64,000 bases of DNA from Ruditapes philippinarum (taxonomy: Eukaryota): assembly GCF_026571515.1 (NCBI RefSeq), contig NW_026855094.1:1-64000 (forward strand), read 5' to 3'. The notes beneath the pieces are model-generated. The model was given only the letters and a program-made list of their open reading frames with translations, made no database searches and had not been told where the DNA came from. Below, one piece after another: positions 7,387 to 63,163 of the stretch (positions are counted from its first letter, which is position 1; each line of letters starts with the position of its first letter). A program made the translations under genes and the position numbers.

Positions 7387-7739
7387 TTTTTATCACACAC
7401 CCGTGCCGATTTTGCGACTCCGTAAATATGGTATTGCACGGCCGTGCATATATTTTGACGTGACGTCATTTGCGCTTTACAATTGTAGCTTTAAGGGGCG
7501 CTAAATATTAGCGTTATACTACAGGCCCGTCAATAAAAAGGGTTATTTTTCCACTTCAAATGGTCTTGTTTTTGGTATGTGATAAAAAGAATATTACATT
7601 TATGTAAGTTCATTACTAAATTTATTGCACTCGTTGAATGAAATAATATTATGCTCGCCAGAGGCTCGCAAAATATCATTTTTATTCAACTCGTGCAATA
7701 AATTCAGTATTGAACTTACACTCATTCAATATCCTCTAT
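7387..7739. mobile_element. Non-autonomous TSD-less element with large subterminal hairpin (Crypton-like, tentative)
   Basis: Absent from the paralogous site (~1855); ends TTTTATCACAC...ATCCTCTAT; ~115-bp palindrome centred on CTCGCCAGAGGCTCG; second copy at ~29387-29737. Confidence 0.75.
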
Positions 7740-8965
7740 CTCCTGTAATCAAGAGGGTAAATTACCAACACCGTCACTCCAAAAGTCTAAAAACATAAAA
7801 TATAAATTTTATTACAGATATCAAAAATGGTTTACAAACGGAAAAATGGCAAAAGTAAATAAAAATCATACCAAGATTTAAATTGAAAATTGTATTTTTT
7901 TGCTATCGTTGAACTGATTTAAGTTGAGTGTTTCTGTTTAAACGCATTTTACAATTTAATTCTGGTCATTTTTCGCAATCAAAAACGAAACGAGAGGATG
8001 ATCTGAAATTTTGTGCATAAGTTATTGGTCCAGGCTTTTCATTCCAATCATGACAAAATGATCTCAGTGACCTTGCATTAGCGTCACACAAAAAAGAACA
8101 ACAATAGTTAACGGGTAATCGGTCTAATGTCTAAGTAATCTCATTTAAATATATGTCACAGATTGAAAAAAAATCACCATATGACATAAAACACAAATTA
8201 AAAGAACTTTACTAAAAGAGGGACATTTAAATGTCAATAACATCAATGATTTATCATTTAAAAGTTTCTTGTATTTACATCAAAGGTTTGTATTAATAAT
8301 ACAGACACACATTTATCATTCCAAAAGAAGGTTAATTACACAGTGAGTGGAATATTAAGTACTGTTTTAAAGTATCACCAACAGAAAAAAGGCTTTCCAA
8401 AATGCAAATTTAAATTACACGGGTTAATGGATTCATAAATAATAATACAATTAATTGATCGGAAATTGATTTAAAAAAATGAAAACTACCTTATGATTTA
8501 TCGCTTTTTGCTGTTAAAGCATGTCACAAGATTTATGCTTATTATCATGAGAAAAAAAATTAAAATGTATTAAAAAAGTAAAATATTCTTAAGTGTCCAC
8601 AGAAAGTAATTAACGCATTGCAAACGGCGCTTACAGTCCACGTAAATTACCCAAAAAGAAGTCAAAAGATATGCGAAAATTTACCCTTTACCAGGCGTTT
8701 AATAACAGCGAGTAATAAATGTTAGTTGATTAATGGCCTGAAAAACCCCCGGGCCCTTTATTCGAACATAGAAATTTAAACCCTTTACTTATTTTCCTTG
8801 GGAACCCCCTTTTTAAAAAATTTTTAAACATTTTATTAAAGGGTTTGATTTTTCTTGAAATGCTTTGGCTCTGAAATCTAGAGGCACATTAATAGAAATT
8901 ATTTACAAGACATAACTCTGCTAAAGGAATGGAAGTCTATACATTATTGCCGATTGTTCTTAGGT

Positions 8966-10461: not shown

Positions 10462-13273
10462 TTAACGGATGAACAGAAAAAATGTAAGTATATTTCATAT
10501 AAATATGCGGGTTTTTAAAAACATTCACCGAAAATCATTTAGTTATGCCAGTGTGTTATTCGATTTCTACATAAGTTACCTTCTAAGAAAAATGGTTTTG
10601 GTTTCATAATACAGAGATTAACCGGAAAAAATAATGCTCTTTATTTAGTGTCACAAACATTTTGAGAAATTTACAAGCTTAGACAAAGATGAAATTTGAA
10701 TATTAAAATGTATGTTATATTCTCTTTGGATGTAAGTATCGATGAAGACTTGCCTAATAGTATGCAACCAGTGTAATATAAAGTTAGCCCATTCTTTACA
10801 TTCAATCATTCTAAACACGAGATTTTTCATTGCTTTTTTCTCAATGTAATATTTTTGATATTGCCCTTTAATTAACAATAGCAACAGATCGAATAATTGG
10901 CGATCAATGGCAAACTGTAGCCCACAGTAAGGCCATTTTATGTATATAAAAGCGTTGAAGTGCTTCATAGAATAAATGACGCTCAATGACAAGCTTAAGC
11001 CTTAAAAATGAAGGAATCTGTTTCAGTTAATTTATCTTCTTATCATTTGCAGATGCTACACAGGCGTTTATGTCGCTTGCTGATCGTAAAACAGAGTGTG
11101 TCCCCTACACAAAAGATACTGTGATAGATGCTGTACGACTGTCCGGGCTAAACCCAACAGAGGTTGAGATTGACCAGCTCCTCAAACAAGTTGGAACAGG
11201 TATTGTTGTGTACATTTCAGGTTAAATACTGTAAATTTGCTGCAATTAATGATCCTGCAGGACCAGAAAAATATAACAGCCCTTAAAAACGTTTTGAAAA
11301 AAAAAATATCGAAGTAATCTACTTTCAACTTTTAAAATGATTCTCCAGTATTCTTATATGACAATATTTCGAATATTTCGATACTGTTGTACATTTTAAA
11401 ACTTCGTTAAGTAGTTAATACCAAAATCATAATTACTGTAAAAGTCAGGAAGAAGGGTGATCCCTCGGAAGCATTAATCACAACAAAATTTTATGAAAAT
11501 CACAGACTCGGATTGATAGTGCAACATGCCAATCCCCGGTTTTAGCAGTACTCAATTTCCATCGCTTATAAGTGCTTGAATCAATGATTCTGAAGGACCA
11601 TAAAAAATAAAACAACACTGACGTGAAGTACGGGGCAACTTTTTACAGCTGTAACACGGCACATGACACCTGCTGTTGTGTTGTACACAAATCTGGAAGA
11701 CGGGTATAAGCCATTCTTGATCCGCTTGCATGATGTTAATAAGCGATTCATATACTAGTATTACTTTGCTATCACAGCTGAAAGACCGTTATAGTCTAGA
11801 ACGGAACAATGGATAAAGATTGGCTAGCAGAGGCTGAGTGCACTTACAGATTACCAAGGTACAGACATAAATAATTTTGATTTATTTTACAGATTATGGT
11901 GACAGACTGAAAAAGGATGACTTCCTTTCGATAATGACGAAAGTCGATTGGAGGTCACCAGAGGAAGTAAAAGAAATATTAAAGGTATGTCAAACGTTAT
12001 AATACGTTTATAAGGCACGCACGAGTATACGTGCACTGTTCTGTAAGGCACGAGTGTGACCAGTGTACACAACTGTCATCTAAGATATACATTTGGAACA
12101 TGCTAGTCAGTTGTACAAGTATTATTTTACAGGTTAAATACTATATGTAGCAAGTACACGAATTCTTTAACATCTTGAATATCATATACATTAGAAATTG
12201 TCCTTACACATGAGCGCACACCAAGAGGAACACCCGTGATTGATATGCAAGTATGGTTTTCAACATACTCTTAACCATATTTCAGGATGACTTCCGCCTT
12301 TTCGTTGAAAACCGGCCTGTAATTACGGAAGACGAATTTATCTATATTCTTACACGAGAAGGAAGAGAGAAAATTACCCTGGACGAAGCTCAACAAGTTG
12401 TGGCTAAATTTGATAAAGATCGAGATGGGAATATCCAAATAGAAGGTACAGTACCATTTGTTTCACACCTTGAAGCTGTTGAAATTACAAAGCTACCGAG
12501 GTTCTTACATAACAATACCACCAATAAAGATCCCTTATCAGACTTATTCAGTGGTCTTGTTAATAAATATAAGAACAACTGCGTACTTATCCAAAGATGT
12601 CCTCACATAACAAAAATAAAAATTGACCTAGAGATATTGGACTCCATGTATTCAAATGACATTCATTGCGAGAGTTTGCTATTTGAATTAGCTATATTAT
12701 AAGAACGTTCAAATTTCGCTTTCGTTTCTATCTTATGATAACAAGCCTCAGTTCTGTATATATCAATTGCAAAGCAAAAACAATAAAAATATCACATACA
12801 AAGTCACAATGCTGAATGGTACAGAGTATAGCGAAGTGGTACAATGTCGTTTATTATTGAAAGAAAACTCAGAGTCCCTTCTACAAACTATTTATTGACA
12901 ATACTTGGCAAGCAATTAAGGCTAATGCGAACTAACAAAAATTATTAATGCACTAAGCATCTAAATAAATTTATTTTTATTCAGATCTTTTTGCCATTAT
13001 CTTTAATTCCATAATTCAAATTATGGAAAATTATAAAAACAAAGTTAACACACACTTAATAAGAAAATAAGATACAAATTCCTGCAAAACCAGCGTTTTG
13101 CTCTTCACTAGTACTCATGAATATACAAAGTCTATTCTTATCTATTAAAGTTGCAAAGCTTTCAGATATTTATTATATTAGTATATTTATGCTAAATGAT
13201 TTGCTACCCACTCAATATTTTCTTCTTTTTTTCAGAAATGATCGAAAAGCTTTTAGCTATAGCACCGACTTGA
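10462..13273 (+). CDS. Divergent calmodulin-like EF-hand protein A (~155 aa; first coding exon unresolved)
   Basis: GT-AG exons 10462-10483, 11053-11199, 11893-11984, 12286-12445, 13236-13273 splice in frame: LTDEQKKYATQAF...GLNPTEVEIDQLL...AKFDKDRDGNIQIEEMIEKLLAIAPT*. CaM-like LTxEQ and GxNPTExE motifs; canonical EF4 loop; AATAAA at 13291. Confidence 0.88.
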
Positions 13274-13481
13274 CCAAAATTGCCTTCGCAAATAAATGTG
13301 TCTGGAATAATGACTTTTATTATTTATAACTATTTCTTTATCGGTAGTTGTTGCCCTCTCTATGTTGGTGTCAAATATATCTTTATTAATTGTTTTTTAT
13401 GTATATTGTTTAAATATATCTAAAAGCTATTTGTTGTTTTGTGTTTTCCTTTTTTTGTCGTTTTCATGAATTCGATGTATT

Positions 13482-16400
13482 TCAACCACTCAACAACTTT
13501 GATAGATCTGAAATGAAATGGCGAACATTCTGAAACTTAAGAATATCACGTTTCATTTTTAAATAATGAAAAAGCACATGCATATCCTCTTTAAAAGAAA
13601 CACAAAAAATGTAAATGTTGGGATATTTTTGATCTTCAATAAATACTGTTCTATTCTTTGCAATAATAACTTAAAGAAAGTTAAAAATAGAAATCATAAT
13701 AATAATAAGACGAGCATTTTCAGATTGAGACATTTATTACCAAACAATTATTTTTTTTTAAAACCAATTATTATAATTTATTAAGGATATGCTTCCTTTT
13801 ATAGTTCAACGAATGACATCACTCATGTTACAAAAAAAAAGTTTTATGCTACTTGTTGAAACAAATAAAAATTCTTTTGCAAAAGTGAAGAAAAGTAAGT
13901 GAGATAAAGACTTTTAATGAGAAGTGAAATCCTTAAGATTACATAATTAAACATAAGAATATTTCTCAATAACTGTTTTAAACATCTAGGAAAAATGATG
14001 ACAAAATTGTTACTTTGTATGCCTTTCAATAAAGGAGTCACAGGTTCGAACTCCAGTCGGGTCACGGCATGTGACACCAATGCTGGTGAAAAATATAAGT
14101 TAATATAATGATTTGTGTAAAAAATAACAAAAAATGACGAAATAAGTTCTTACCTGGGACATTCACATTTTCAGAATCTGTCTCTAAACTTTCAATAATC
14201 TTATCAGCCTGTGCATTAGATAATGGTTCATCGCCAAGTTTCGTGAGAATCTCCCTAAAATCTGCTTTAGTGATGACAAAGCCGTCATTTGTATCAAACT
14301 TGGCAAAAGCTTCAGCAATTTCTTCGTTAATAGATTCCTGTGATTTAAGGTGGACAAATTGTTCAACAAAATCTCCAATTTCGTCTCGTTCTATCTTGTC
14401 ACCTTCTGGAAAAGAAATCATGTGAAAACACAATTTTTATAGCAACAGCGTGTTGATTAGTGAAATAAAATTTAAAAAGATAAGTAAAACCTTTCTGTTC
14501 CCTTATATTAAAGTCTTTCTTTTTACTAAACTACAAAACGACCTTTTCAGGAAAAAATGTTATTATTTCGTGCTCTGTAAATCCCAGTTTCTATAACTAA
14601 AAATCCTGAAATAAGGTCGGCAAAATACTGTACATATATTGAGCTGGATTGTCTGAGCAGAACATGCACTATAACATCGACAGCTTTACTCTATAAGGAC
14701 ATGTCAAATCTATGTACAATTCTCAATTGTTATAATTAAACGTTAATAAAAAAAGTTAAACGGTTTAAACAGCTATTACTTAATCTGCGGCCGGCATTCC
14801 TTTCATGGTTTCATAATACTTCGAAAAATACATATTTGGAAAGGAATTTTCTTATTCTACTTGAAAAGCAGTACCTCTATGACCGCCTTCCTGTATTTGC
14901 GTGTGAATGGTAGCTTAATATTATATTGATGATAATTATATCAACAGAAAACAACTGCTCAGAAGATATTGACCATTAACAAGCAATAAACTTTAAAATA
15001 CGAAATTAAATTTCTTCTCCGCCTGCGAGTGTATTGATCACGTCGTATTTTAAAAATTGGTTGATGATGATTGATGCCAAGTCAGTTGTTAAATAACAAG
15101 ACATAAACGTTGCAATTTTCTTGTAATAATTGATGGTTTGGAGTCCATTAAAATGTCAGTTTGTCTGACAACGTGCTGTTAACATGCAAACAAATTAGCA
15201 TATCTAACACGGCTACATATGAAATATGTTCTCCCCGTTACGAAAACATTAAAAAATGTTGCCAAAAACGATTTATAGCGCAAAATCAATATCTAAGAAA
15301 TTGTAAAAGTAAACATCCTAAGACTATATCTACTTTAATAATTTTGGAGGAAATTGGGCGAAACCCTGTTTATAAAGTGTATAAATCGGTTTAACATTTA
15401 CATTTTTTTTACAAACTTATTGATTAAAAGGTATCATCTCAAAGACTGTCAGTAATATAAGTTTTTACTAGATGGGGATTTGAACTGCCATTGAATGCGA
15501 AATGAATTCTTACGATAAAACCACATGGACTNNNNNNNNNNNNNNNNNNNNNNNNNNNNNNNNNNNNNNNNNNNNNNNNNNNNNNNNNNNNNNNNNNNNN
15601 NNNNNNNNNNNNNNNNNNNNNNNNNNNNNNNNNNNNNNNNNNNNNNNNNNNNNNNNNNNNNNNNNNNNNNNNNNNNNNNNNNNNNNNNNNNNNNNNNNNN
15701 NNNNNNNNNNNNNNNNNNNNNNNNNNNNNNNNNNNNNNNNNNNNNNNNNNNNNNNNNNNNNNNNNNNNNNNNNNNNNNNNNNNNNNNNNNNNNNNNNNNN
15801 NNNNNNNNNNNNNNNNNNNNNNNNNNNNNNNNNNNNNNNNNNNNNNNNNNNNNNNNNNNNNNNNNNNNNNNNNNNNNNNNNNNATTGTCATCTCTTTCTT
15901 AGTAGGGTTCTGACCAATCAATTGTAACACTTCACGAACACCATGCTTGTCCATTTTACCAACTTTTTCTTTATCTATCTGGTCAAATGCTTCTTTGATA
16001 GCTGAATAAGCGAAATCAAACTTTGTGAAAATGACCTAAAGGAAATTTATATACTTTCGATGAGTATTATTAATGGGGTAAAATTGCTTTGTTATACTCA
16101 TACTATGTTAATTATAACAATAAGTTGGAATAGAAATTTAACTAAGAAAAATGATTGTAAAGCAATGTTTACATGTGTATAACATAAGATAAACGATAAA
16201 AGTTGGTTTGATATTAACACTAAGTTTATAATGTTTCGAAAAATACCGACCTTCCTTCAATGCTTTTGATAATTTCTGAAACAAAAAGAAAGTGGTATGA
16301 ACTTTAAATAATACTTTTCAGTTGTTTTTTTTTTAAATAGATAACGGCATTGGATATAACGCATTAATAAATCTTGGCTGTTGGTTAGAATCTCTCTATT

Positions 16401-16807
16401 GTTTTTGAATTCTTTAATGTGAGGAATTTCTTTGGCTAGCTTATAGAAGATCGGTGGTTCTACTCAGATGCCCACTCTTCTTCGCGAATAAAGCTGGAAA
16501 GTCGCAACTAATATCTTAAAACGTGTTTGTGCGACATAAAACACAGACGCATTAAATCAAGCGGATGATCACGCGATAATGTTCGGTGATCTAATGAGCT
16601 TGAGGAATTGATAATTTAAATGTAAAATGGTATTCAAAATGTGGTGAAAGGTTCAGCATTTGTTTATAACTTTTCTACATTATATTTAATATAAAGCAGG
16701 ATGAAGTTGAAATCTTTTTACATAAGGAATAATAACATTATGAAATGAAAAATTATACAATTAAAATACAAAATATAAAAAATATGAATTTTCCATACCT
16801 GTGTCAT
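13482..16807 (-). CDS. Divergent calmodulin-like EF-hand protein B (~150 aa)
   Basis: Exons 16807-16799 (ATG ACA CAG), 16275-16251, 16001 into the N-gap, 14405-14154, 13507-13482: MTQKLSKALKEAIKEAFDQIDKEKVGKMD...IGQNPTKKEM...EEIAEAFAKFDTNDGFVITKADFREILTKLGDEPLS...DLSKLLSG*. Confidence 0.87.
15532..15883. other. Assembly gap (352 N) interrupting exon 3 of gene B
   Basis: Run of N; the coding frame runs into it. Confidence 0.99.
16345..16545 (+). mobile_element. Degraded SINE in intron 1 of gene B
   Basis: ATGTGAGGAA...GGCTAGCTTATAGAAGATCGGTGGTTCTACTCAGATGCCC matches the reverse complement of the 3407-3663 body. Confidence 0.65.
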
Positions 16808-17176
16808 GTTTATTATATTATTCAAATTGTTTTCTGTCCCACCGAAAACTTACAGATATATTCATTCTAGGGGTAGACATAAGAACAAATGTAAAACGAT
16901 AGTGTGCAATCATTCTTCCATTTCGTTTTGATATACAAATTGTATACATACTTAAAACAAAGACCGCTAAAAATATAACATACGCAAAAGTGTATTGATA
17001 AAACAAAAGAACAATCCCACGAAGTGTGCTTAAGAAAAAGTAAAATAAAATCAATGTGTTAACAATAATATATTCAAACTGTTTGCGAAATTTAAAATAC
17101 AAGGTGCCAATGTTTATGTGCGTCAGCATGTTGAAATAATTTCAAAAACGTCTTGACACTGTTCTTTTGTTGTTTT

Positions 17177-20100
17177 TCACCCCATGAACAACCGAGATAA
17201 CTCTGAAATAGATGAAAACGATATCATTTTGAACCAACAAAAACAACAACAACAGTACAAATGTCAAAACTCTTTGGACTTTCATTATAATTCTTGCATT
17301 GAAAGAAATGAAATAAGAATATAAAGTCCATATTGTAATGATTTTATTCACGTGCACTATTAACATATGGTGACTTATAAACGTTCCGGCTAGATTTCGG
17401 ATAGTCGGTGGTTTTTCTCAGAACTTCGATCCCTTGTGATCGAATTAATGTACGAACGGCTACCACTAAATTTGTAAAGCCGCGTTACAGGGTCGTTGTG
17501 ACTGAAACCCGAACAAAATAAAAACCAGTTCTAAGACCTTAAAGTGACACTAGATGTTGCTCCGTGCATTATTGTAGACCTTTCGAAAAGTCCACACCTG
17601 AGATAAACTATTCACTTTCAATAATTATTATAACAGTGGATAACTTCCTCACATACCCTAGGAAAATTCAAAGACATTGCTTTGAAGTTAGTGTAATGTT
17701 TTAGTTTTTAGAAGCTCGTGAATCTTAAAACCCATCCTTTTAAGTCTGTATTGGAAACTGTTTTCGAATCAGTTGAAATTAGTTTGCCAAAAAATAAAAG
17801 AAATTGACATAAGAAAACACCCAAACATCATGCTTATATACCTGTAACATTATACTTCCCGCTGTTCTCTATATTTTTCAAACTTTCTATCAAGGTCTCT
17901 GCATCGCCATCAGTTAAAGGTTCATCACCAAGTTTGGTCATCACTTTTTGAAATTCTTCTTTACTTATAGAAAGATCGCGGTCATCACGGAATTTTTCAA
18001 ACGCCTCCGTAAGCTCTTTGTCGATCTCTTCCTTTGTTTTGAAAGGTATATGTTGTTCAACAAATTCAATAAATTCGGCTAACGTAAAAGTGCCATTACC
18101 TTTATGGAAAAAAATAAAAAAGTCATTATCTTGGTATAGTATTTCATATCTAACTCCTGCAAAAGCATTATTATTCGAGGATTACTATTTTTCGTAGTCT
18201 TGTGGGTTGGTAAATCAACGAATTTTGATATTCAACGATTTTTTTCGCGCCTGTCGTACAATTATTGTTACATATCTAAAGTATTTGTATTATATTTATT
18301 GGAAAAAAAGACAAACCGCGAATTTAAGAGCCAAAATGTCCTTTTTTGATAGGACCACGAAATTGTATGCCTACAAAATTAGGTGAATTGACAGTATTTT
18401 AACACAAAATGCTTGGTATTAAAGCCAGGCACGATTGCATTTCACTAAGGTTTAGCAGACACATCACTGTTTAATACTCAGTGCCATTATTTTGCGGTTG
18501 AATTTCCTTGAATTATCGAAACTTAACCGACCAACCTGTTTATACAGGGATTTGAGAGTGTGTCTACAAGCTCATAGCTTCCTTTAAAATATAACTAAAA
18601 TAGATTCTATGTAAACCAATGGTTGGATACTACATCATCGCGTACTTGCAAAATGCTACCAATCGGACATTTTTGTGTAAATATCCTTTCGATAAAGATG
18701 AGCGTCAATTTGGTAGGTAGTTGGTAGTTGGATATTCGAATAACCAACTACCTATACTAGCTGATAGTTGGTTATTCGTAGTTACCAACTATTTTAGAGG
18801 TGCATGGTAGTTGGTAAATCAATCCACTATCACCAGCATGAAATGTAAGAACGCTTCGTACATTATAAACACAGAATAAAAGAGGGGACCTAGATGTTTA
18901 TCTCGCAAATCCCAAAACTACCTACCAAAGTTCGAATTACTAACTACCTTCTGGTAGGTAGTTGGAGATTCACATAAATAACCAACTGTGTCCCCTGCTC
19001 GATGTAGGGAGACGTGGTGATACCATTTGCTAGAATTAATCTATCTTGTCATATATCTGTTACTTTATTGTGAAAAGTTTTTTTCTAGGGACTATTATAT
19101 CTTAGAGACTACGTACAAGAAGTTCGAATAACCAACTATCTTCTGGTTGGTAGTTTGGGATTAAAGCTAATTAATAACCAACTGAGTCCCCTGGTCGATT
19201 TACGGTGAAGAGGTGTCACCATATTATAGAAAACACATATTTAGTTATATGACCGTAACATTTGTTCAGAAAACAAAGCTTTGTTTTCCAGAGAAATATA
19301 TGTACAATCCGAATTACCAACTACCTTCCATGGCAGTATGTAGTTTTGTATTCAGGCAAAAAAAAACAACAAACAAAAGTCTCATGGAGGACATAGGGAG
19401 ACAGGGTGTTTCAATGTTGAAGAATACAGCTATCTTACTATATATCCGTCATTTTACTGTTGTTTTTATGGGTAAGCATGCAATGTTTTTTTCGAATTAC
19501 CAACTGCCTTCTGGTAGGTAGTTGTGGATTCGCGCGAATAACCAACTGTGTCCCTTAGTCGATTTATAGTGAAGGGGTGTTACCATATTATAGAAAACAC
19601 ATATATTGTTATATAACCGTAACATTTGTTAACCATTAACATGCATTCAATACTAGTATGCGAAGTGTTGTTTGCAATATGTAAATTACTGTCTTAGTTC
19701 ACTCGAAAATAGTTTACCTTTAATTTAGATTAAATTTTTAAAATTTTCATGAAAATAAGCATGAGTCTGGGGCTTTGCTGCTTTAACAGACTATTCTCAC
19801 CTAATTTCCGCCAACGGTAATATTTTAACATGTGAAAATTAGATTAAATAGACTTGTCTCAACCCGTCATTTATCATTAAGGTGATTCCGCTTTTGTCAG
19901 ACCATGTTTTGTTTTCACAAACCTCTGTCCAAAGTGGAAAGTAGGCAAAATTCACTATAACAACAAAGCTCTTATTGTAAAATGCATGAACCATTTGAAA
20001 GTACACTTCCAGGTTTATATTTTTAAGGACGAATTATAAAACAAAATAAAAATGATAACAATAAGAATATTTACCTTGAAAGTGCTACATTTCTGAAGAA

Positions 20101-23100
20101 CCAAAAACATTCTGTTGCAAAGTTTTATACACATTTCATGAATGGCAAAATCCTTTTTTTTTAAGTCTGTTTTAGTTGCCTACAAAAAGCTATTTTTTTG
20201 CAGCAAATACAAAAATCTTTCAAAAACTTAACTCCCAAATAAATCCATATCTATGTCCTTCTAAGCACATGGCCTCCATTATTTTTTGGTAAAAAAGTAG
20301 TGCAAGAAAACAATCATCATTTTATAGCCTTATGAACTACTATTAAAAATAAAACACCTATCAAACTTTAAAATCTAACCTTTTTATGTGTAACAGTGAA
20401 TTGTGTCTGTTTGTCATGTACACAAGTAGATAGGTAATGATGTTTATTTTCATGGTACTACTTTTTTACACATGTCATTGTAGGCCATGTTTTTTTTCAA
20501 AGGTCAGATAAACTACACTTCCTAAGGTTTATATTTTTTAAAGTTTTTTGTATTTTCTGCAAAAAAAATAGCTTTTGTAGGCATTAAAACAGACTTTAAA
20601 AAGGATTTTTTGCCATTCATGAAATGTGCATAAAAAACTTTGCAACAGAATGTTTTTTGGTCTTCAGAAATGTAGCACATTCAAGGTAATTTTCTATTAT
20701 GTTATCATTTTATTATTTTGTTTTAAAATAGTCTTTAAAACATAGAACTGGAAGCTGTACTTGGCAAATGGCTCATCATATAAACAATGTAAAGCTTTTG
20801 TTGTTATATGAATTTTGGCCTACTTTCACTTTAGACCCACATAGTGAAAACAAACATGGCTGACAAAGCAGAATCACCTTAACTACAAATATTCATTTCA
20901 GTTTACTTATTGTCATTGTAAGAACTGCGATTCTATTTCACGAATCATGGCTTTTCTGGTATGGTTTTTTTATTGCCAATGCCTGTCAACAGTCTTACTT
21001 ATTTTCCTTGTGTTTAGTCTGAAAGCTTTGTGTTTTGGATAAACCTTTTACTGTAGATGAAATTATCGGTGCTGTTAAATCATTAAAAAGGGGAAAGTCT
21101 CCCGGAAAGGATTTTTTGTTAAACGAGTATTTTATTGAATCAATCGACATATTAGCGTCCCATATTTGTGATATTTTTAATTGTATACTTGATACCGGTT
21201 TTTTCCCGGATTCATGGACGGAGGTATAATTATACCGTTACATAAAAAGGGGGACACTGATAACGCTAACAATTATAGAGGCATAACACTTGTTAGTTGT
21301 ATGTCAAAGTTGTTTACATCAGTTATCAATAAAGAGGATAATAAATTATTGTGAACAAAATCAATGTATTATCTGATGCTCAATTTGGATTCCGTGAAGG
21401 GAAAATCTTACTGTTGATGCTTATATATATATTGTTGTCTGTAGTACAAAAATATTTAAATGAAAATAAACGTTTATATTGTGTATTTGTTGATTTCCGA
21501 AAGGCTTTTGATTTGTGTTTATAGAAATGCCTTATGGTTGAAAATTATATAAGTTTGGTATAAGAGGTAAACTTCTGCGTATAGTAAAAAGATATGTATA
21601 ATGAGGTACAATCTATGTGTAAAACATTGAAAATACCTTTTCTGAATTTTTCGAAATATGCTATAGGACTATGTCAAGGGGAGGTAATTTCGCCAATTTT
21701 ATTTTCGTTGTTTATTGATGATGTAGAAATTATTCTTAGAACAAGATAATTAGTAGTGGCCTTCAAATTAATGACATTATACTTATGCTATTACTTTTTG
21801 CTGATGACATGGTTATACTAGGTAATTCAGTTTTCAGAGTTATTAAATACAAGTTTTAAAGTCTTTTTATATACTTATTGTAAAAAGTGGAGTTAGAGTT
21901 AATGTAGAAAAAGACTAAAGTGGTTGTTTTTAGGAAACGTGGTGGGTTATTACAGGCAAGAAGAATTTTTGTATAATGACATAAAGCTAGATGTTGTTAA
22001 TGATTTTTAATTACCTCGGTGTTATTTTTTTTAACTATACTGGGCACATTTATTTTAAATCAGAGCAGGTTAGTTTGAAAAGCTGATGAAGGCCATTGAA
22101 TATTTTAACTTATTAATTGTAAGAAATAACAATTTTTAAAACCTAAAATCTTTATGCCCAGTATATTTGATTCTTTTGTAGGTTCAATTCTTTGTTATGC
22201 ATCTTGAAATATGGGGTACACAGTAAGTCAAAGGTAATTAGAAAGAGTACATCTCAGATTTTTTTGTAAAAGGATATTAAATGTTAGGTTAAATACATGT
22301 AATGCAGCTGTTTATGGAGAACTAGGACGTTATCCATTATTTGTAAACAAGATATGTAAAAATTGTAAAATATTGGTTAAAGCTACTACAAACTGATAAT
22401 ATTATTTTGAAAGAAATATATCACATGTCTTATTAATGATTGTACAAGTGGTAAACGTAACTGGTTATCTGCAATGTCAAAGATATGTTGTACACTTATG
22501 GTTTTATGGATGTTATGGGAGAATCAAGGTTGTGTTTGTCATAAATCTTTTTATCTGCGAATTTTAAGCAACGGTGTAATAGATAACTTTTTACAAAACT
22601 GGCATTTCTGACATAATGCGTAGCCCAGTTTTGAATTTGTATAATTAATTAATTTGAAGAGTGGGTTTGGTTATATGAGACATTAATCTAGATAATGCAT
22701 CCATCACAAAGAAGGAATCTTAGAACATCCTCTTAATAGTAGAATACGTATCTGTCATTCTACATTAGATTCAGCATACCAACCGGTACGTTATGGATTT
22801 AAAACAGATTCTAGAAATAACGAATCATTGTATATATTCGTAATGCTTCGTCGTATGCAGATGTAATACATTATATCATTGTACTGTACTCTGTATATTC
22901 TTGAAATTCGTACAAGTTTATAATAATGACTACTGTGTTAGACAAGTATGCTTCAAAACTTTATTGAATGATTAAAATTGTTATTTATAAGAAATATTTG
23001 CGTACTTTGGCTTATATATCGAGACTCCTCTGGCTAATAGATATATCAATCGTCTATATTAGTATGTATAATGAATGGTATACTCTATTTAGGACGTAAA

Positions 23101-25858
23101 TAGAATATTGGTCATGTCGCTATTGCTTACTAGTCATATGTTCAGATGTAAACGTAGGTGTATGTAAGCAGTCTATAAGCTATAATTTATGTACCATTAA
23201 ATGTCACTCGTGACTGAATGTTAGCTATAATTTAAAGTGTGTAATGTGATTAAGAATAACAAGTCGTGTACATGTACAGGAAGGTCTTGATAAACAATTC
23301 TAGTTATGCTGTTACTGTATTCTTCTACACACTCACTCGTATTCACGCAACCAGGGCGTAATATTGCTCAGCAATTACCTGAATTAATTAAAACAATTTA
23401 CATTAGTCAATCGTTAAAACAGCTCATATTATAACATAATATAAAAGTTAGTTTGAAACCAACTCCTATATATGTGCAATTGTGTTACTTTCATAACTCC
23501 TTTCAGGCGCTGTCTCTCTCAATTGCAAATACCTGCTCCTCCTCAAGGACTTCGAATGATAGTATAAATCATTGCTACTCGGGAATATCTGTGCGTCAGT
23601 GGTTTACAACGATCTTGACTCACTGAATCACAACAGGAGGAATTCGCGAGTTCGATCCCGCTAACTCTAATCTCAACAAAAATAACATCCTTTCGTTATT
23701 GATAGTAATAATAGATAATTAAAATTAATAATAGGAGAAACTTCAACTCATCACTAACATAACAGGACACTAATCAAATCACTGACACACAGAAAACACC
23801 TACTCAAACACTGAACAACAGGGACAACTACTCAAAATCCCGAACACATAGGACACTACTCACTACTGACACACAGCTTATAGGGAGCAAATAATATGAT
23901 GAACACTGATACAGCTAGAGCACCCTACTACATTCACAACCCGAACACATAAGAAAGTACTAACAAACACTGGTACACAGAACACTAGACTTAAATACAC
24001 TTGGCACGGAACACTACAACCATGACACATAACGTCACTATTCTACAATGCATATACCTGAGGAATCTACTGACCTACTTGCATAAGATACGAGACTACT
24101 ACAACTGACATAACATACTCAACATGCACACAGGACAAATACTGGTCATAGCACTTAGCTATTACAGGGACACCTAGTCAATCATCCTCCACTACCTATG
24201 TCACTAGCTGTGAGACTTCTGGCACACATGACTCACTAACTCAAACACTCGACAAGAACACTATCTCACACTGGGACACATGACACTGACATCGATAGTA
24301 TTACACTACTACGCTGAGATACGCCACAATATACGTAGAAAGTCATAGTACGCTCTGTGTTACGTCAATGTTTCCATGTGTCTAGTAGGCTCATTTTTGT
24401 ATGTACCGCTGTATCGAGTTGGTGTCCTGTGCTCGTATATGTCATGTGGTTGAGTAGTGTTCTGTGTTGTGTCATTTGATTTACAATCCTGTTGTCCGTG
24501 TTTAAGCTATCTTGGTGCTGTGAAATGATCCTATAGTGTCGTGTAACGTGTCCAGTTGGAGATGACACCTGTGTTAGTATAGTGACTAACTAGTTGTAGC
24601 GCGTTTGTGTATGTTCGTTGTACTTGTTCATGCAGTGTTCAGTGATTCTGTATTCTCTAGTTTATTGTCACTGTCTGGTTATGCTGATAGTCGGGGTAGT
24701 CGGCTTAGTTATTTTAAATTTTAATGGTGTCGGCAATCTCTGCCTGTATATATGTTTTTGCAATGATAGTCTGTGTATGGAATTTGTAACAACCTTGTGT
24801 ATTTTCTTTGGCAGTCGTACTATGTATGTTATTAATCGTCTTGTGTATTACTGTGACGTACCAATGATCCTATTCTAGGTATTGCTTAAATTAAGATAAC
24901 TGTCTATGTAGTTTCCGAATATATAATCCGCGGTGTTCGTGTGTTTATGTGAAATTAGTTGTTTTTTTGTAGCTATTGTGTCGTGTGGTTCACCTCGTAA
25001 GTTGATATGATAAATTACAGCACAAGGATGTCTTAGTGGGCTTTCTCCAATATGATGTGTCTCTTTCAGCCATACCTAATTCCAAAATTATTCTTCTGTT
25101 AGGTGATTATTTCTCATAAGTTTAATGATTCATTTTTGATAGTATTTCTGTCTACTATTAACTATTTGTTATAGTGTAAGGTGATAGTTCTTTTATTTAT
25201 ATTTATTTAATTTGCATATATTGACTTTTAAGACCATACTTGACTATTGTTGTTTCATTGACAGTCTTTATTAGTCTATTACCAATGGTCTTACTCCTTT
25301 ACGCCGAACAAGTTAAATTGTATAGTACGCCAGGGGTTTTATAGGATGGACTAAGTATCTTAATCGTGCAGTTCTTGTTAGTATGTAATAAAGCCGTACT
25401 TGGTTGACGTGAGGTTTAGGGAAACAAGTAGTCAATCTTCGTTGTGGGTTAGCTGTCGGACTATACGTATGGTAGTGTGGAGTTAATTAGAAGTTTTTTG
25501 TTGGCCATAAGGTGTGTGCAAAGCGTCTAGGGATTTGGATGAATACAATAAAGCCATCTGTGACGAACCGTTGAGTCGCGCTCGGGAAATGTGGCGTGTG
25601 ACCGAAAAAAGTTGGCCAAAATGAAATGTGGGTGTTCCAGAGGGTGCGAGGGTGTGGGGGGGTGGTAGCGAAGGAGTGGGCGGGGGTGGAGTGGTGCTCT
25701 TTTGTGCATACTTTTTGTATTTGGTGGGGGCGTGGGGGGTGGGGTGTTGTGTTTATAGCTAGTGTGGATTTGTTTGCGTGTTGGTGGGGTGTTGCTTGGG
25801 TTGGGGGGGTGGTGATTAATGTTCTGGATGTTTGGGTCTGTGATTGGGGGGGGGTGGT

Positions 25859-25889
<31 letters not shown>

Positions 25890-27721
25890 GTGGGGTGGGG
25901 GGAGGGGGGGGGTGGTGGGGGGGAGGGGGGGGCGGGAGGGTGGGGGGGGGGGGTGGGGGGGGGGGGGGGGAGGGGGTGGGGGGGGGGGGTGGGGCGGGGG
26001 GGGGGGGGAGGGGTGGGGGGGGGTGGGGGGGGTGGGGGGGTGAGGTAGACTGGGACTATTTATTTGATTCCTGTGTTGTAAACACTGACACACTAAGGAC
26101 ACTGACCACATAGGACCTGACAGTAGGACAGTACTCAAACACTGACACATAGGACAGTACTCAAACACTGACACACAGGACACTGACACACAGGACACTA
26201 CTCAAACACTGACACTGACACACATGAATATACTCAGACACTGACACACAGCATACTGACAAACAGGACAATACAAAAACACTGTCACACAGTGAACTAC
26301 ACAAACGCTGACACACAGGTAGGATACTACTTAAACACAGGGTTCTTCACAATCACTGACACTGTTCAAACACTGACACGACATGTCAACAGTCACTAAC
26401 TTTTAACAGGACACACAGGAACAGTTACTACTCAAGATGACACAAGACACTGACTCAACCACTTGACATATAGGCACTGGGACACCACAACTCGAACCTT
26501 ACGTGACACAGAGCACTACTAAACAGGAAATTGCCTTAACAGAGCGTACATGGACTCCAAGCACTACTAAAACAATTACTACCAAGAGTAAGTTCTATCA
26601 TACACAATAGGAGGGGACCCTGTGATACGCGCACTATATAGTGGGTATTCGAACTTTTTCCTATTTTGTACAAATATCTCCTGTCATATAAACATGTTAA
26701 GTTCGAATTACCAACTACCTGGATTCAAGTACCAGATGTTTAATATTATTTTGGGAATTTCCAATTACCAACTACAACGAAGTTGGTTATTCGAATATTC
26801 AACTACCACCTATACCTACCAAAGTCACGATCATTCGATAACGATGTGTTGTTGTGTTTTTTTTCCTAAAAGCTCCCACTCGGACTCCCAAACTAAATTT
26901 ATTCCGTTTTCAGGCTTAAACCAGGCAGTAATACTTTAAACGTTTTTACAGTTATATCTTTGGTGCGCTACATATGTGTTTTGATATCGTTACTTCGAGT
27001 AGACAGGATAGCAGTCCGATTGGGAGCATTTTGCATGGGCGCGATGACGTAATATGCTACCGTTGTAAACTAAAGTTTTATATTTCATTGAGTTTAAAAC
27101 AGTGTGATATGTTTTATATCTTATTGATATATTTAAATATCTCATTGGAAAAAAATAGTTTAGAGAATGTTACCCAAGCGTTCTGTGTATGTGATCATTT
27201 CCTCCATGGTTGGGTTCTGGCCAGTCAACTGTAACGCTGCTCTTAGCTCGGATTTATTTATCATACCCGAATTCGTGATATCAATGTCTTCGAAAGCATC
27301 TTTGAGAGCTGAAATATAAACTCTGTGATATAATAGGTTTGTTCATTGTGTTTTAACTATTAATGTCGGTTGATAATAATAAAGATTAATTATCTTAAAT
27401 TACTCGAATTATCCGATGTGTACTCGAATCCCGTGCATGGTGTATGAATTTTTCCATGTGCTAGCTAACAGAAGATATACATGTACTTAGAAGGGGTGGG
27501 ATAACTGAGTTATCCCTCTAATCCCTGAGTTACACCTTTAGCTGAGTTATCCCAACACAAGCTGATATTTAACCACAAAGCAGTACAAACAACAACAAAT
27601 TTAAACAAAAAGGACTGTCGTTAACAATAGAAATGAATTTCTTATATAAATCTGTTAAAAAAAAAAGTTTAGTTGATCTACCTGCTTTTTGAGGTTCCGT
27701 TAACGTACGTCCACCTGGCAT
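17177..27721 (-). CDS. Divergent calmodulin-like EF-hand protein C (152 aa)
   Basis: Exons 27721-27682, 27308-27174, 18099-17842, 17202-17177 give 459 nt in frame: MPGGRTLTEPQKAALKDAFEDIDITNSGMINKSELRAALQLTGQNPTMEEM...LGNGTFTLAEF...ELTEAFEKF...MTKLGDEPLTD...ELSRLFMG*. Confidence 0.88.
19881..20878. mobile_element. ~1-kb foldback MITE with TTAA target duplication (Kolobok-type termini)
   Basis: TTAA|GGTGATTC...GAATCACC|TTAA; the arms are reverse complements over >400 bp; RR..YY ends plus TTAA fit Kolobok rather than piggyBac. Confidence 0.85.
21030..22990 (+). mobile_element. 5'-truncated, frameshifted non-LTR retrotransposon (LINE) reverse transcriptase
   Basis: Motifs KSPGKD, IIIPLHKKGD..NNYRGITLVS, QFGFR, FVDFRKAFD, QGEVISPILF, LLFADDMV, GELGRYPL across shifting frames; antisense to host gene C. 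Confidence 0.9.
23750..26600. repeat. Noisy CA-rich minisatellite (ACTCAAACACTGACACACAGGAC-like) with an inverted segment and a poly-G tract
   Basis: Clean units at 26080-26330, degenerate at 23750-24350, complementary-strand composition from ~24360; G-run at ~25846-26043. Confidence 0.7.
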
Positions 27722-39571: not shown

Positions 39572-42500
39572 TCAGAATCGTCTATTAGACTTGATCGGAC
39601 TCATGGACATATCTAGATCATCCGAGTTTTCAAACAGTCTTTTCTTTGGTTCCGGAAGAGCAAACGTGTCATTCTTAGAAGAATAATCTCCGGAAACATT
39701 CGATACATAGCTGTAATGTCCCGACTCTGATATAGGATCAAGTCCTTTAGAGGAGTACGTGTTAGCAGGTACACTACTCGTGTACGATGAGGTCGTGAAG
39801 GTCAATGGAACACTATGGGCGGTAGAGTATGAACTACTAGAGGTCAGAGAGTTCAAGGTTGTAGGCAGGTATGATGATGCTGATGACGGTCCTGGATATG
39901 ATGACAGACCAAGTGATGATGATGATGACCCTGCAGAGGAAGCAGACAATAAATTAGTCTGTGACGACAATGATGAAGCAGAAAATGGTATGTTATTATT
40001 CACAGCAACTTTTGTAGAAAAGTTAGAAAAATCGGTGCCGTCTTTATAGTTATCATCGTTAAATGAAGAAACACTCTTACTATTAGAATATTTATCGTTA
40101 GGTATATAGTTAGAACTGGCACCATACTCTAATTTATCACTAGCAAAGTTACTACTTCTAGCACCTACAGAACTTGCATAGTTATTTGAGTCAGACTGAC
40201 CCATATATGACGGAACAGACGTCCGGTTTTCAAACCGATCACCATAACCATTACCGACACCAGTATTCGTGTTAGTAGAATTAGTATAGTTAGGTAAACT
40301 ATGATAACCATCACCAGGGTTAGTGTAAGATGTGGTCGAACTTTGATAAGGAGGTAGCTGGCTTGAGTACGAACCTTGGGTAGCGCTTCGTGCTGGTGCA
40401 AAATCTGGTACCCTGGAACCAGTAGGTGGCTTCTGAGACATATCTGTTGGCAAGGAAGATGGGCCTGAATATGGGCCACTTGATTTTGTTAGTGAGGAGT
40501 AATCAGTGTTATTTGTGAGGGTAGGGGTGCTGCGACCAGAACCAGTGTTAGCAGTGTAAGTGTATTTATCTGTGCTAGGTTTTGAGAGGGCCATATATTC
40601 AGAGTGGGTTGGGATGGTAGGTGTGATTCTACCGGAAGAGTAATGCTTATCAGGGTCGCTACCAGTGCTGGAGACAGGCAGAGTTGGTGTCTGCCGGCCA
40701 GATGGTGGGAGTTTTCTACCAATTTCCATTTCCATGGAAACCATCTTATCTGAGGAATAACCACGTGCATGTGAATCTAAACCAGTGTCAAGACTTGATC
40801 GTCCCTCGCTACCAATGCTGCTGTATCTATCACCAACACTGCTACCAGAACTCTGTGACCCTAAAATATCGTGCTTGGCCGTTACCGGTGCACTACCTGG
40901 CACATCTACTTTATTTTCTTCCTCACCATATGAACGTCTGCCTAAATACCCAGGAAAACTGGATCTAGACTTTAATCCTAACGGGTCATCCACAGAACTA
41001 TATTTATTCTGGAAACCCGTTGAACCTCGAGACATCATTAGATTATCCAGTGATGGAGTCCTGGTTAATGTTGTTCTACCAGTTGTCAGTCCACCAATGT
41101 ATTTATTTTGATTGCTGCTTGAATACATGTTTGATGTTGTTGGAAGCGCACTGCTTGGTCTTTCATACTGATCGGCATTTCCGGCAATAAATAAATTATC
41201 TAGTGACCCAGATCTTACATGTCTTCCTCGAGAATAACTATCCAAGGACGATGTAAATTTGCTGGTGTCCGTCTTATAGTTTGACATAAAATCGTCCCCT
41301 ACTCCATTTCTCTGGCCAATACTACCGGTAGACGACCTAAACGCAGTATCCATATCGGTATCTGTTGATCTATATTTAGGAACATCGTCAGTAACCGGGT
41401 CTATGTCCCTTGTATGAACATTCTTTTCAGCACGATTTAATATTTTCATGCAATCAGTAAATTCCGGTGTTAATGATATATTTAATTCGTCCAATTCACT
41501 TTCTATATAGTGAGTGTCATCTAAATCACTTTTATCAAGGCCAAGTCCGTCTCTTGTGCCCCTTGACCTTCTTAGTTCACCATCAAGGTCGTCCAGAGGA
41601 TCTGACCTTTTCCTGCTATCATAATCACTTGATCGTGACCTAGATGAATAGTCCCTATCACGAGACCTTTTAGAATCTAGGTCACTTGGTGCACTTAGAA
41701 CACTGTCATCTGCACTGTACTTTTTCTTTGAACCTGAATAAAGGTCATCCTCATAGTCCCTATCACCCGATGACCTTGACCTACTTTTAAGAAAAAGGAG
41801 GTCATCATCCTGAGATAACCTATCAGCTGACTTTTGGTTATAACTGTCTGATAGTGAATCTTTAGACAAGTCAGTGGAATAACCAGACCTGTCACTGTAT
41901 TTATCACTAGAACTTCCTTTTTTACTGGCACCGTTTGTTTTCTTTAACACACCTTTCACTGGTGACACCCTTCCATTCGCAAGCCCACTTGCATTGGCCG
42001 AAGTTTTAAGTGGACTTGGCATTTCAAGGTCGAATGACATTGTACTATTTGTGTTTTTGTTCAGGTCAAAGGTCACCCTTTTCTTTCCGCCATTTTCTCC
42101 ATTTATCTTAGCACCTTGTGATCTCCCATCACTTTTGTAATCATCATCATAATCCCCATTTCCATCATAGTAATACTTAGACCTCTCACCTGAACTTGTT
42201 TTAGCACCCATGTCATCAGAAAACAATTGTCTTCTGTGTTGATTATCTGCCCCTTTCCCATACTCTCTAGGTGGAGGTACTTTTGAATCTGAAGAGTACT
42301 TCCTGTTTGCAAGATCACCATTAGTCAGAGGCTTGTCATCTCTATCAGATCTTCTGGACGAGCCAGATTTTCCACGATAATCATCCAGCTCTGATTCAAG
42401 TTCTTCAATGTATTTATCAGATCTCTCTAGAGCTTTTGTGAGCCTAGTAACGTCCTTCTCTGCACTAGCAAGGTTTGTCTCCAGTGTAGACACTGTGATT

Positions 42501-63041: not shown

Positions 63042-63163
63042 GTACGTATTCAACTAAATGTACATGATTGATTAGTGGTTTAAAGTGGGATAATAATTAT
63101 TTAAATGGCTTCTATTTAAATTATTTTATTCCTTTTATGCATTAATCTTAATAACTTAAAATT

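What the first reader, a model, noticed from the sequence alone, without database searches (positions are those of the whole stretch)
10462..27721. Three diverged calmodulin paralogues, each keeping a different EF-hand
Seen: three ~152-155 aa CaM-fold genes side by side. Scoring the 12-residue loops against the canonical DxDxDGxIxxxE pattern: A keeps only EF4 (DKDRDGNIQIEE); C keeps a near-canonical EF1 only (DITNSGMINKSE; EF2 entry helix shortened, EF3 starts with R); B has no canonical loop (EF1 ends in G, EF3 DTNDGFVITKAD is partial; part of its EF2 region lies in the gap). All three keep the GxNPT linker and the hydrophobic AF/EF helices, and the readable frames have no stops, which suggests selection on fold and target binding rather than decay. 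Inference: a lineage-specific, subfunctionalised set of Ca2+ sensors or light-chain-like subunits (candidate roles in muscle, cilia or mantle calcification), and possibly Ca2+-insensitive competitors of CaM at IQ motifs.
Basis: partly seen in the sequence, partly recalled or inferred. Interest (0 to 1): 0.7.

Follow-up and report, generated by a model that had tools for sequence, protein, structure and literature searches.

The report
Calcium-poor calmodulin-like clam gene trio
Three neighbouring clam genes are spliced, conserved descendants of the calcium sensor calmodulin that have lost most calcium-binding sites but kept the surfaces that grip partner proteins, so they likely act as largely calcium-independent accessory subunits of motor-type proteins in a tissue not yet identified.

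Summary
The three genes are real. A (+) and B, C (−) are spliced in public RNA contigs. A and C match Manila clam RefSeq proteins; RefSeq's B model lacks the N-lobe. Orthologues exist in Mercenaria and Mactra (A), Mactra (C) and Dreissena (B), with signs of purifying selection.

"Each keeps a different EF-hand" is overstated. B keeps none. A's EF4 passes the canonical pattern here and in Mercenaria but ends in Lys in Mactra. C's EF1 passes only in Mactra. What orthologues hold nearly constant are the two inter-EF linkers and the C-lobe groove used for calcium-free IQ-motif binding. A folding model docks A on a clam IQ motif (0.75, best control 0.08; possibly from memory).

A, B, C and a fourth clam gene share a one-residue longer EF3–EF4 linker. 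They form one clade apart from calmodulin, the clam's essential light chains and a centrin-like protein in one of two careful trees.

Best reading: an undescribed bivalve subfamily of largely Ca2+-insensitive, light-chain-like subunits, working like MlcD or androcam. Tissue and target are unknown. Three look-ups of this scan's notes showed no earlier report.

The parts
10462..10483 (+). Gene A, first placed coding exon (LTDEQKK-Y); an upstream ATG-only exon is implied by RefSeq but not placed
   Evidence: P0003 starts M-LTDEQ; one search gave two unconfirmed candidates
11053..11199 (+). Gene A exon: degenerate EF1 (2-residue insertion) and GLNPT linker
   Evidence: spliced joint to next exon in X1
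11893..11984 (+). Gene A exon: degenerate EF2 and central linker; followed by an A-specific phase-0 intron
12286..12445 (+). Gene A exon: degenerate EF3, lengthened EF3-EF4 linker (GREKIT), canonical-looking EF4 DKDRDGNIQIEE from 12412
13236..13273 (+). Gene A last coding exon and stop
13274..13481 (.). 208-bp spacer between the convergent stops of A and B; one RNA contig covers it into A's last exon, so the 3' ends overlap or nearly touch
   Evidence: table 8, record 6 (13244-13507); AATAAA sites
13482..13507 (-). Gene B last coding exon and stop
   Evidence: joint 13507/14154 CT..AC
14154..14405 (-). Gene B exon: EF2 positions 4-12, EF3, GDEPL linker, shortened EF4
   Evidence: RefSeq XP_060586359
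15884..16001 (-). Gene B exon, readable part: EF1 ending in Gly and GQNPT linker; continues into the window's N
   Evidence: loose end at 16251 reads this exon
16251..16275 (-). Gene B second coding exon
16799..16807 (-). Gene B first coding exon (ATG ACA CAG)
   Evidence: joint 16275/16799 in X5 and X9
16808..17176 (-). 369-bp stretch from C's stop to B's ATG, holding C's 3' UTR and B's 5' UTR; covered unbroken by one X5 contig, with a depth dip in X1 and X9
17177..17202 (-). Gene C last coding exon and stop
   Evidence: joint 17202/17842
17842..18099 (-). Gene C exon: EF2 end, EF3 (RDDRDLSISKEE), GDEPL linker, degenerate EF4
18100..27173 (-). Gene C 9.07-kb intron, containing a decayed LINE and a poly-G tract
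   Evidence: loose ends behind 18100 read the exon at 27174 in X1, X5, X9
27174..27308 (-). Gene C exon: near-canonical EF1 DITNSGMINKSE from 27282, GQNPT linker, shortened helix
27682..27721 (-). Gene C first coding exon
   Evidence: identical to RefSeq P0002

Best explanation
A, B and C are spliced, conserved calmodulin-derived genes whose calcium loops are mostly broken while their partner-gripping linkers are kept, and they likely serve as largely Ca2+-independent, light-chain-like subunits that clamp IQ-type helices of motors, channels or scaffolds in a restricted tissue or stage. Shown: gene structures, splicing, orthologues, the conservation pattern, and separation from the clam's own essential light chains. 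Predicted: A can wrap an IQ helix in the apo-calmodulin manner, with the C-lobe on Ile-Gln and the GxNPT linker on the Gly and second Arg. Inferred: by occupying IQ sites they would replace calmodulin and uncouple or blunt the target's Ca2+ response. Single leftover loops (A-EF4, C-EF1) would bind Ca2+ or Mg2+ weakly or structurally in some species. B and C arose by tandem duplication; A is an older relative.
For: Across orthologue pairs, identity at the two inter-EF linkers is 63 of 66 (B), 31 of 33 (C) and 25 of 33 (A). At Ca-ligand positions 1, 3, 5, 12 it is 31 of 79, 22 of 40 and 30 of 45; background is 0.54, 0.51, 0.51. In B and C the groove residues that contact IQ motifs in apo-calmodulin (E84, A88, F89, F92, V108, M109, L112, E114; PMC4990970 and PMC5122967, passages read) are kept or conservatively changed. 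A-EF4 position 12 is E, D, K; Asp shifts selectivity towards Mg2+ and Lys perturbs binding (PMC5983762, passages read). Complex model of A with a 40-residue clam IQ segment: score 0.75, best of 3 controls 0.08, runs agree in at least 93% of contacts, partner pLDDT at least 68. That mark was reached by 51 of 78 solved and 2 of 108 mismatched microbial pairs; in eukaryotes by 39 of 65 solved pairs without a like complex and 2 of 126 unrelated pairs. B exon versus two relatives: pN 0.23 and 0.21, pS 0.86 and 0.85 over 75 codons; 4 of 4 exon variants tested were synonymous. Spliced in contigs of X1 (A, B, C) and X5, X9 (B, C), but near zero depth for A and B in 3 of 3 raw RNA runs and very low for C in 1 of 1.
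Against: No binding or Ca2+ measurement exists. Calmodulin-IQ complexes are solved, so the model's pass may be memory; it does not name the true target, and B and C were not modelled with a partner. A carries Asp at calmodulin's Ala88 and Glu at Leu112, both groove positions. In A the ligand positions (0.67) are more conserved than background (0.51), and EF4 passes the pattern in 2 of 3 species. C-EF1 keeps D1, S/T5, G6 and E/D12 in 4 of 4 sequences. Degenerate loops can bind Ca2+ inside a complex, as the scallop essential light chain does (PMC4914028, passages read). Linker conservation may partly reflect fold. Only 4-12% of each raw run was read and tissues are coded. A joined B+C in only one of two careful trees.
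Confidence: 0.58

Rival explanations
1. One reading: a divided set of Ca2+ sensors, A sensing through EF4 (as recalled for molluscan troponin C) and C through EF1, each switching its target with Ca2+.
For: A-EF4 passes the pattern in Ruditapes and Mercenaria; C-EF1 passes in Mactra and is near-canonical elsewhere; C-EF3 keeps D3/D5/S9/E12 in several orthologues. A functional site IV in scallop troponin C is known (title in the reference list of PMC5963113 only).
Against: B has no site in 4 of 4 sequences; A-EF4 ends in Lys in Mactra; ligand positions in B and C are no more conserved than background; each leftover loop lacks an intact partner loop.
Confidence: 0.2
2. The proteins are Ca2+-insensitive structural subunits with non-IQ partners, or they assemble with one another (for example in an axoneme or a secreted-fibre cell), which would explain the clustering and shared expression.
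For: All three are spliced in the same run X1. Stops are 208 bp apart (A, B) and C's stop is 369 bp from B's ATG. Mactra A and C accessions are two numbers apart on a contig of the same length. A's groove has two acidic substitutions.
Against: The IQ-contact set is kept in B and C and A docks on an IQ helix in canonical geometry. No test of A-B-C assembly was run.
Confidence: 0.14
3. They are ordinary orthologues of a known subfamily (myosin essential or regulatory light chain, CALML4, troponin C, centrin), as automatic names suggest.
For: Database names: 'Myosin light polypeptide 6' (Mactra A), 'troponin C-like' (Dreissena B), 'calcium vector protein-like' (Mercenaria A).
Against: The names disagree among orthologues. 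In every full-length PDB search calmodulin-type chains fill the 60 rows shown, whereas the clam's own essential light chain L093 ranks scallop light chains first. The tree keeps them apart from L092/L093 and a centrin-like row.
Confidence: 0.05
4. They are decaying duplicates of calmodulin without function.
For: Only 27-37% identity to calmodulin; the genome holds dozens of calmodulin-like copies.
Against: Intact frames, splicing, 52-75% orthologue identity across families, pN far below pS.
Confidence: 0.02

Closest known systems
Calmodulin (canonical, molluscan multi-gene family; PMC6171432, passages read)
   Same: Size, four-EF fold, best PDB matches, phase-1 introns at the same three positions, no intron inside EF3 in B and C, ATG-only first exon in A, GxNPT linker
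   Different: 27-37% identity; at most one canonical loop; one residue longer EF3-EF4 linker; longer central linker; 4, 6 and 3 Met in A, C and Dreissena B against 10
Dictyostelium MlcD and Toxoplasma MLCs (PMC4914028 section 15, read)
   Same: Calmodulin-like, four EF-hands without high-affinity Ca2+ sites, lineage-restricted; the working model proposed here
   Different: Those are shown to bind myosin IQ motifs; here binding is only predicted and no target is known; no homology implied
Drosophila androcam (PMC4914028 section 15, read; cluster paper seen only as a title in PMC3080363's references)
   Same: Tissue-limited calmodulin derivative that replaces calmodulin on a myosin; lies in a cluster of EF-hand genes with a dicistronic pair, echoing the tight C-to-B junction
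   Different: Androcam keeps two high-affinity C-lobe sites; the clam genes have introns and lost nearly all sites; testis expression and a dicistronic mRNA are not shown here
Amphioxus calcium vector protein (PDB 1c7v)
   Same: Same lengthened linker (GEEPLT against GDEPLT); best PDB hit for a 28-residue C segment, 19.5 against 14.5 bits, E 0.005
   Different: Not in the top 60 for full-length queries; level with calmodulin on a clade profile, 22.8 against 21.9-23.3 bits; CaVP keeps functional EF3/EF4 and an N-lobe disulfide (recalled)
Myosin II essential light chain (scallop; clam L093, L092)
   Same: Degenerate EF-hands, IQ-binding geometry
   Different: Separate clam genes; they have an intron in the EF3-EF4 linker that A, B, C lack; 26-31% identity

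Membership tests
Calmodulin superfamily (CaM-like, four EF-hands) | Two EF-hand-pair lobes of about 150 aa, no other domain | tested here: met
   Pfam EF-hand_7 above cut-off for A, B and C; models (pLDDT 77; pLDDT 60); PDB hits
Canonical calmodulin | Over 90% similarity to human calmodulin (criterion in PMC6171432) | tested here: not met
   27-37% identity to a canonical-type calmodulin row
Canonical calmodulin | Four canonical Ca2+ loops | tested here: not met
   1, 0 and 0 loops pass in A, B, C
Canonical calmodulin | Shared intron positions and phases | tested here: met
   Phase-1 introns at calmodulin positions about 11, 59, 140, as in the clam's calmodulin loci; shows descent, not membership
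Myosin essential light chain | Best match to, and clade with, known essential light chains | tested here: not met
   against positive control; tree
Myosin essential light chain | Binds a myosin IQ motif without Ca2+ | tested here: inconclusive
   Model only, for A only, possibly from memory
Myosin regulatory light chain | N-terminal extension (172-226 aa in human, PMC4914028) and a metal-binding EF1 (recalled) | tested here: not met
   148-153 aa with no extension; A and B EF1 broken; no RLC row in the trees
Centrin | Clade with centrin | tested here: not met
   Centrin-like row P0030 (named from recall) falls outside the clade
CALML4 | Orthology to CALML4 | tested here: inconclusive
   Clam L040/L077 look CALML4-like by recall only and fall outside the clade; no named CALML4 sequence was available
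Molluscan troponin C | Single functional site IV and orthology to scallop troponin C | tested here: inconclusive
   A has only EF4, but no troponin C appears in the 60 rows shown for A; the clam's own troponin C was not located
Calcium vector protein (amphioxus) | Lengthened EF3-EF4 linker G-[DE]-E-P-L-T | tested here: met
   the same length also occurs in unrelated rows P0105, P0051, P0052, so it can arise independently
Calcium vector protein (amphioxus) | Functional EF3 and EF4 (recalled) | tested here: not met
   EF3 fails in all rows of the clade; EF4 passes only in two A rows
Calcium vector protein (amphioxus) | Phylogenetic grouping with CaVP; binding to CaVP target | not testable with these tools

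The most novel reading that the evidence does not exclude
The lengthened-linker clade (A, B, C and the fourth clam gene) is the protostome counterpart of amphioxus calcium vector protein, making that 'orphan' an old bilaterian family. In clams it has become a co-regulated three-gene module, partly read as a C-B dicistronic RNA and tail-to-tail with A, that equips one IQ-array motor with three different Ca2+-blind light chains, paralleling the androcam cluster of flies.
Probability: 0.1. Interest if true: 0.72.

Novelty: new member of a known kind. Interest (0 to 1): 0.4.

Why it matters
Bivalves carry dozens of calmodulin-like genes that annotation pipelines name inconsistently and papers often read as Ca2+ or shell-formation genes. 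This trio shows an old, conserved branch that has largely given up Ca2+ binding while keeping its target grip. It gives a compact test of how a Ca2+ sensor turns into a constitutive subunit, with natural intermediates: EF4 ends in E, D or K among A orthologues, and an outgroup (P0060) still has DVDGDGQL at EF4. The kind of system is known (MlcD, androcam, light chains), so the surprise is moderate.

Tried and rejected
Run search: no RNA holder on record was listed. Twenty rows hold 14-23% of the words; only X1, X5 and X9 were laid, and the other shares are not used as evidence.

A dicistronic C-B mRNA is not accepted. One X5 contig runs through, but contigs cannot show a single transcript. In X9 depth falls to about 6-12 between B's 5' end (83) and C's 3' end (25). 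X1's C contig ends at 17104, near a CATAAA at 17118, and seven upstream ATGs lie in the spacer.

Monophyly of A with B+C: SH-aLRT 76 in the quick tree; not recovered in the careful 47-row tree (bootstrap unsettled, 6 short or near-duplicate rows dropped); 96/93 after adding L073 (38 rows, near-identical calmodulins and B/C half-sequences left out). No AU test was run.

CaVP kinship: inconclusive. ESM Atlas gave only generic EF-hand clusters. The Foldseek search on A gave calmodulin, light chains, troponin C and centrin without separating them; the low-confidence C model was not searched. Top hits were designed repeat proteins, a summed-score artefact. The four metagenome loci were too short to show gene order. 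A's first exon was not placed.

Literature: searches (listings and abstract starts only) showed no paper on these genes; subscription papers and supplements were not seen and could hold expression data. Four papers were not held. Earlier scan notes held nothing on this family.
Full report
Observation. Exon models give gene A on + (10462-13273) and genes B (16807-13482) and C (27721-17177) on the minus strand, all with open frames and GT-AG introns. A and C are identical to RefSeq XP_060586358 and XP_060586360 of Ruditapes philippinarum, both 'uncharacterized'. RefSeq's B (XP_060586359, 97 aa) starts at a Met just upstream of the exon acceptor and lacks the N-lobe. RNA contigs show B's true first exons: joint 16275/16799 and a loose end into the exon at 16001. 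Spliced joints were also seen for three A introns and B's last intron, and for C's last intron and 9-kb intron. X1, X5 and X9 are only guessed to be RNA by the tool, but joints at exact intron ends show spliced molecules. A and B had near-zero depth in 3 of 3 raw RNA runs and C very low depth in 1 of 1; only 4-12% of each run was read and tissues are coded. Expression therefore looks restricted, and the tissue is unknown.

Origin. Introns fall in phase 1 at calmodulin positions about 11, 59 and 140, as in the clam's many calmodulin genes. Full-length PDB searches return calmodulin-type chains in all 60 rows shown. Identity to calmodulin is 30, 27 and 37%; B-C is 41%, A-B 28%, A-C 22%. Orthologues: A in Mercenaria (75%) and Mactra (52%); C in Mactra (59-61%) and an unnamed record; B in Dreissena (65%) and metagenome contigs. 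Mactra C and A carry accessions KAL4230334 and KAL4230336 on a contig of equal length, so the cluster is probably conserved (inferred, not viewed). All three have an EF3-EF4 linker one residue longer than calmodulin's. Among 72 other clam loci examined, 48 showed the normal linker and 1 (L073, G000:C2296) the long one; the rest did not include or match the linker. With L073 in the set, A+L073 and B+C+P0060 form one clade (96/93), apart from calmodulin, two essential light chains and a centrin-like row. Without L073, A did not join B+C, so long-branch effects cannot be excluded; B+C was firm in both trees (100/98 and 97/88). The clam's muscle essential light chain is another gene, L093, whose best PDB hits are scallop light chains.

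Calcium loops. The ligand positions follow PMC5983762 (passages read); the PROSITE-like pattern is recalled. In this genome only A-EF4 passes. Among orthologues A-EF4 passes in Mercenaria (E5, D12) and fails in Mactra (K12). C-EF1 passes only in Mactra, though it keeps D1, S/T5, G6 and E/D12 throughout. B passes nowhere in 4 of 4 two-lobe rows. B's EF2 is non-canonical at positions 5-6 in readable sequence. The outgroup P0060 keeps DVDGDGQL at EF4, so loss continued after the clade arose (inferred).

What is conserved. Pairwise identity among orthologues is highest at the GxNPT and G-x-E-P/K-L-T linkers (B 63 of 66, C 31 of 33, A 25 of 33), then the hydrophobic core (125 of 165, 69 of 90, 68 of 94; core list recalled). 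Ligand positions give 31 of 79, 22 of 40 and 30 of 45, against background 0.54, 0.51 and 0.51. So ligands are at or below background in B and C but above it in A, a point against a fully Ca2+-blind A. The residues by which apo-calmodulin grips IQ motifs (PMC4990970, PMC5122967, passages read) are kept in B and C; A has Asp and Glu at Ala88 and Leu112. Selection: pN 0.21-0.23 against saturated pS 0.85-0.86 for B's large exon, and 4 of 4 exon variants tested were synonymous; the variant table was cut.

Mechanism. A folding model placed A on a 40-residue clam IQ segment (L047; 'myosin V-like' is my recall) with score 0.75 against a best control of 0.08, run agreement of at least 93% and partner pLDDT of at least 68. 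The mark was reached by 51 of 78 solved and 2 of 108 mismatched microbial pairs, and in eukaryotes by 39 of 65 solved pairs without a like complex and 2 of 126 unrelated pairs. The IQ Ile touches A's residues 87, 90, 91, 109, 110, the Gln touches 110 and 116, and the Gly and second Arg touch 37-42: the canonical arrangement. Since such complexes are solved, this shows likeness, not binding. I conclude that the proteins most likely act as constitutive IQ clamps that replace calmodulin in some cell type and blunt Ca2+ control (0.58). A Ca2+-sensor role through single loops remains possible (0.2), all the more as scallop essential light chain gains a site inside its complex (PMC4914028, passages read).

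Locus layout. The stops of A and B are 208 bp apart and one contig covers the gap into A's last exon. C's stop lies 369 bp from B's ATG; one X5 contig runs through, while X1 and X9 show separate ends with a low bridge. Separate mRNAs with overlap or some read-through fit best.

Comparison. It works like MlcD, Toxoplasma MLCs and androcam (PMC4914028 section 15, read) but is not a member of those families. It fails the tests for calmodulin, essential light chain, regulatory light chain and centrin; CALML4 and troponin C are inconclusive. The long linker matches amphioxus calcium vector protein in a short search, but not beyond calmodulin in a clade profile, and it recurs in unrelated proteins. 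Five literature searches (listings only) showed no description of these genes; subscription papers and supplements were not seen.

Verdict. This is an undescribed heterodont-bivalve subfamily of a known kind of protein. Interest 0.4.

Noticed in passing
L073 (G000:C2296:137600-142000), exons near locus 392-541, 1127-1240, 1696-1827: A fourth clam gene of the same clade: degenerate EF1 and EF3, lengthened linker, an extra intron inside EF3; sister to A
   Followed up: partly
window 16808-17176 and 13274-13481: Very tight C-to-B head-to-tail and A-to-B tail-to-tail junctions with overlapping or read-through RNA
   Followed up: partly
window 14154-14412 (RefSeq XP_060586359): The RefSeq model of gene B is truncated to 97 aa and misses three upstream exons seen in RNA contigs
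   Followed up: yes
P0004 (Mercenaria XP_045205690): An annotated isoform of the A orthologue lacks the whole EF1 exon, giving a 104-aa protein; possible alternative splicing
   Followed up: no
P0009 (Mactra KAL4230334): The C orthologue is annotated as 469 aa with an unrelated Cys-rich tail, probably a fused gene model
   Followed up: no
G000:C15641, C13660, C9055, C5193, C14567 and others: Large calmodulin and calmodulin-like family: 133 exon matches at E up to 10, with a tandem cluster on C15641
   Followed up: partly
window about 21030-21930 (+): Decayed LINE reverse-transcriptase remnant with frameshifts and stops inside C's 9-kb intron, antisense to C (motifs read; family name recalled)
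   Followed up: partly
window 52704-54035 (+): 443-aa open frame with RVT_1 (E 7e-32), a LINE-type element
   Followed up: partly
window 59918-63057 (+): Exons with SBF_like matches; SLC10A7-like by recall
   Followed up: no
window 39572-42517 (-): 981-aa Ser-rich open frame with a coiled-coil start and no significant Pfam match; likely the last exon of a longer gene
   Followed up: no
window 11239-11700 and 7389-7740: Repeat elements with very high RNA coverage from other loci (about 600x per strand in X21 for the one in A's intron)
   Followed up: no
window about 25840-26045: Long poly-G-rich tract in C's large intron; may be a sequencing or assembly artefact
   Followed up: no
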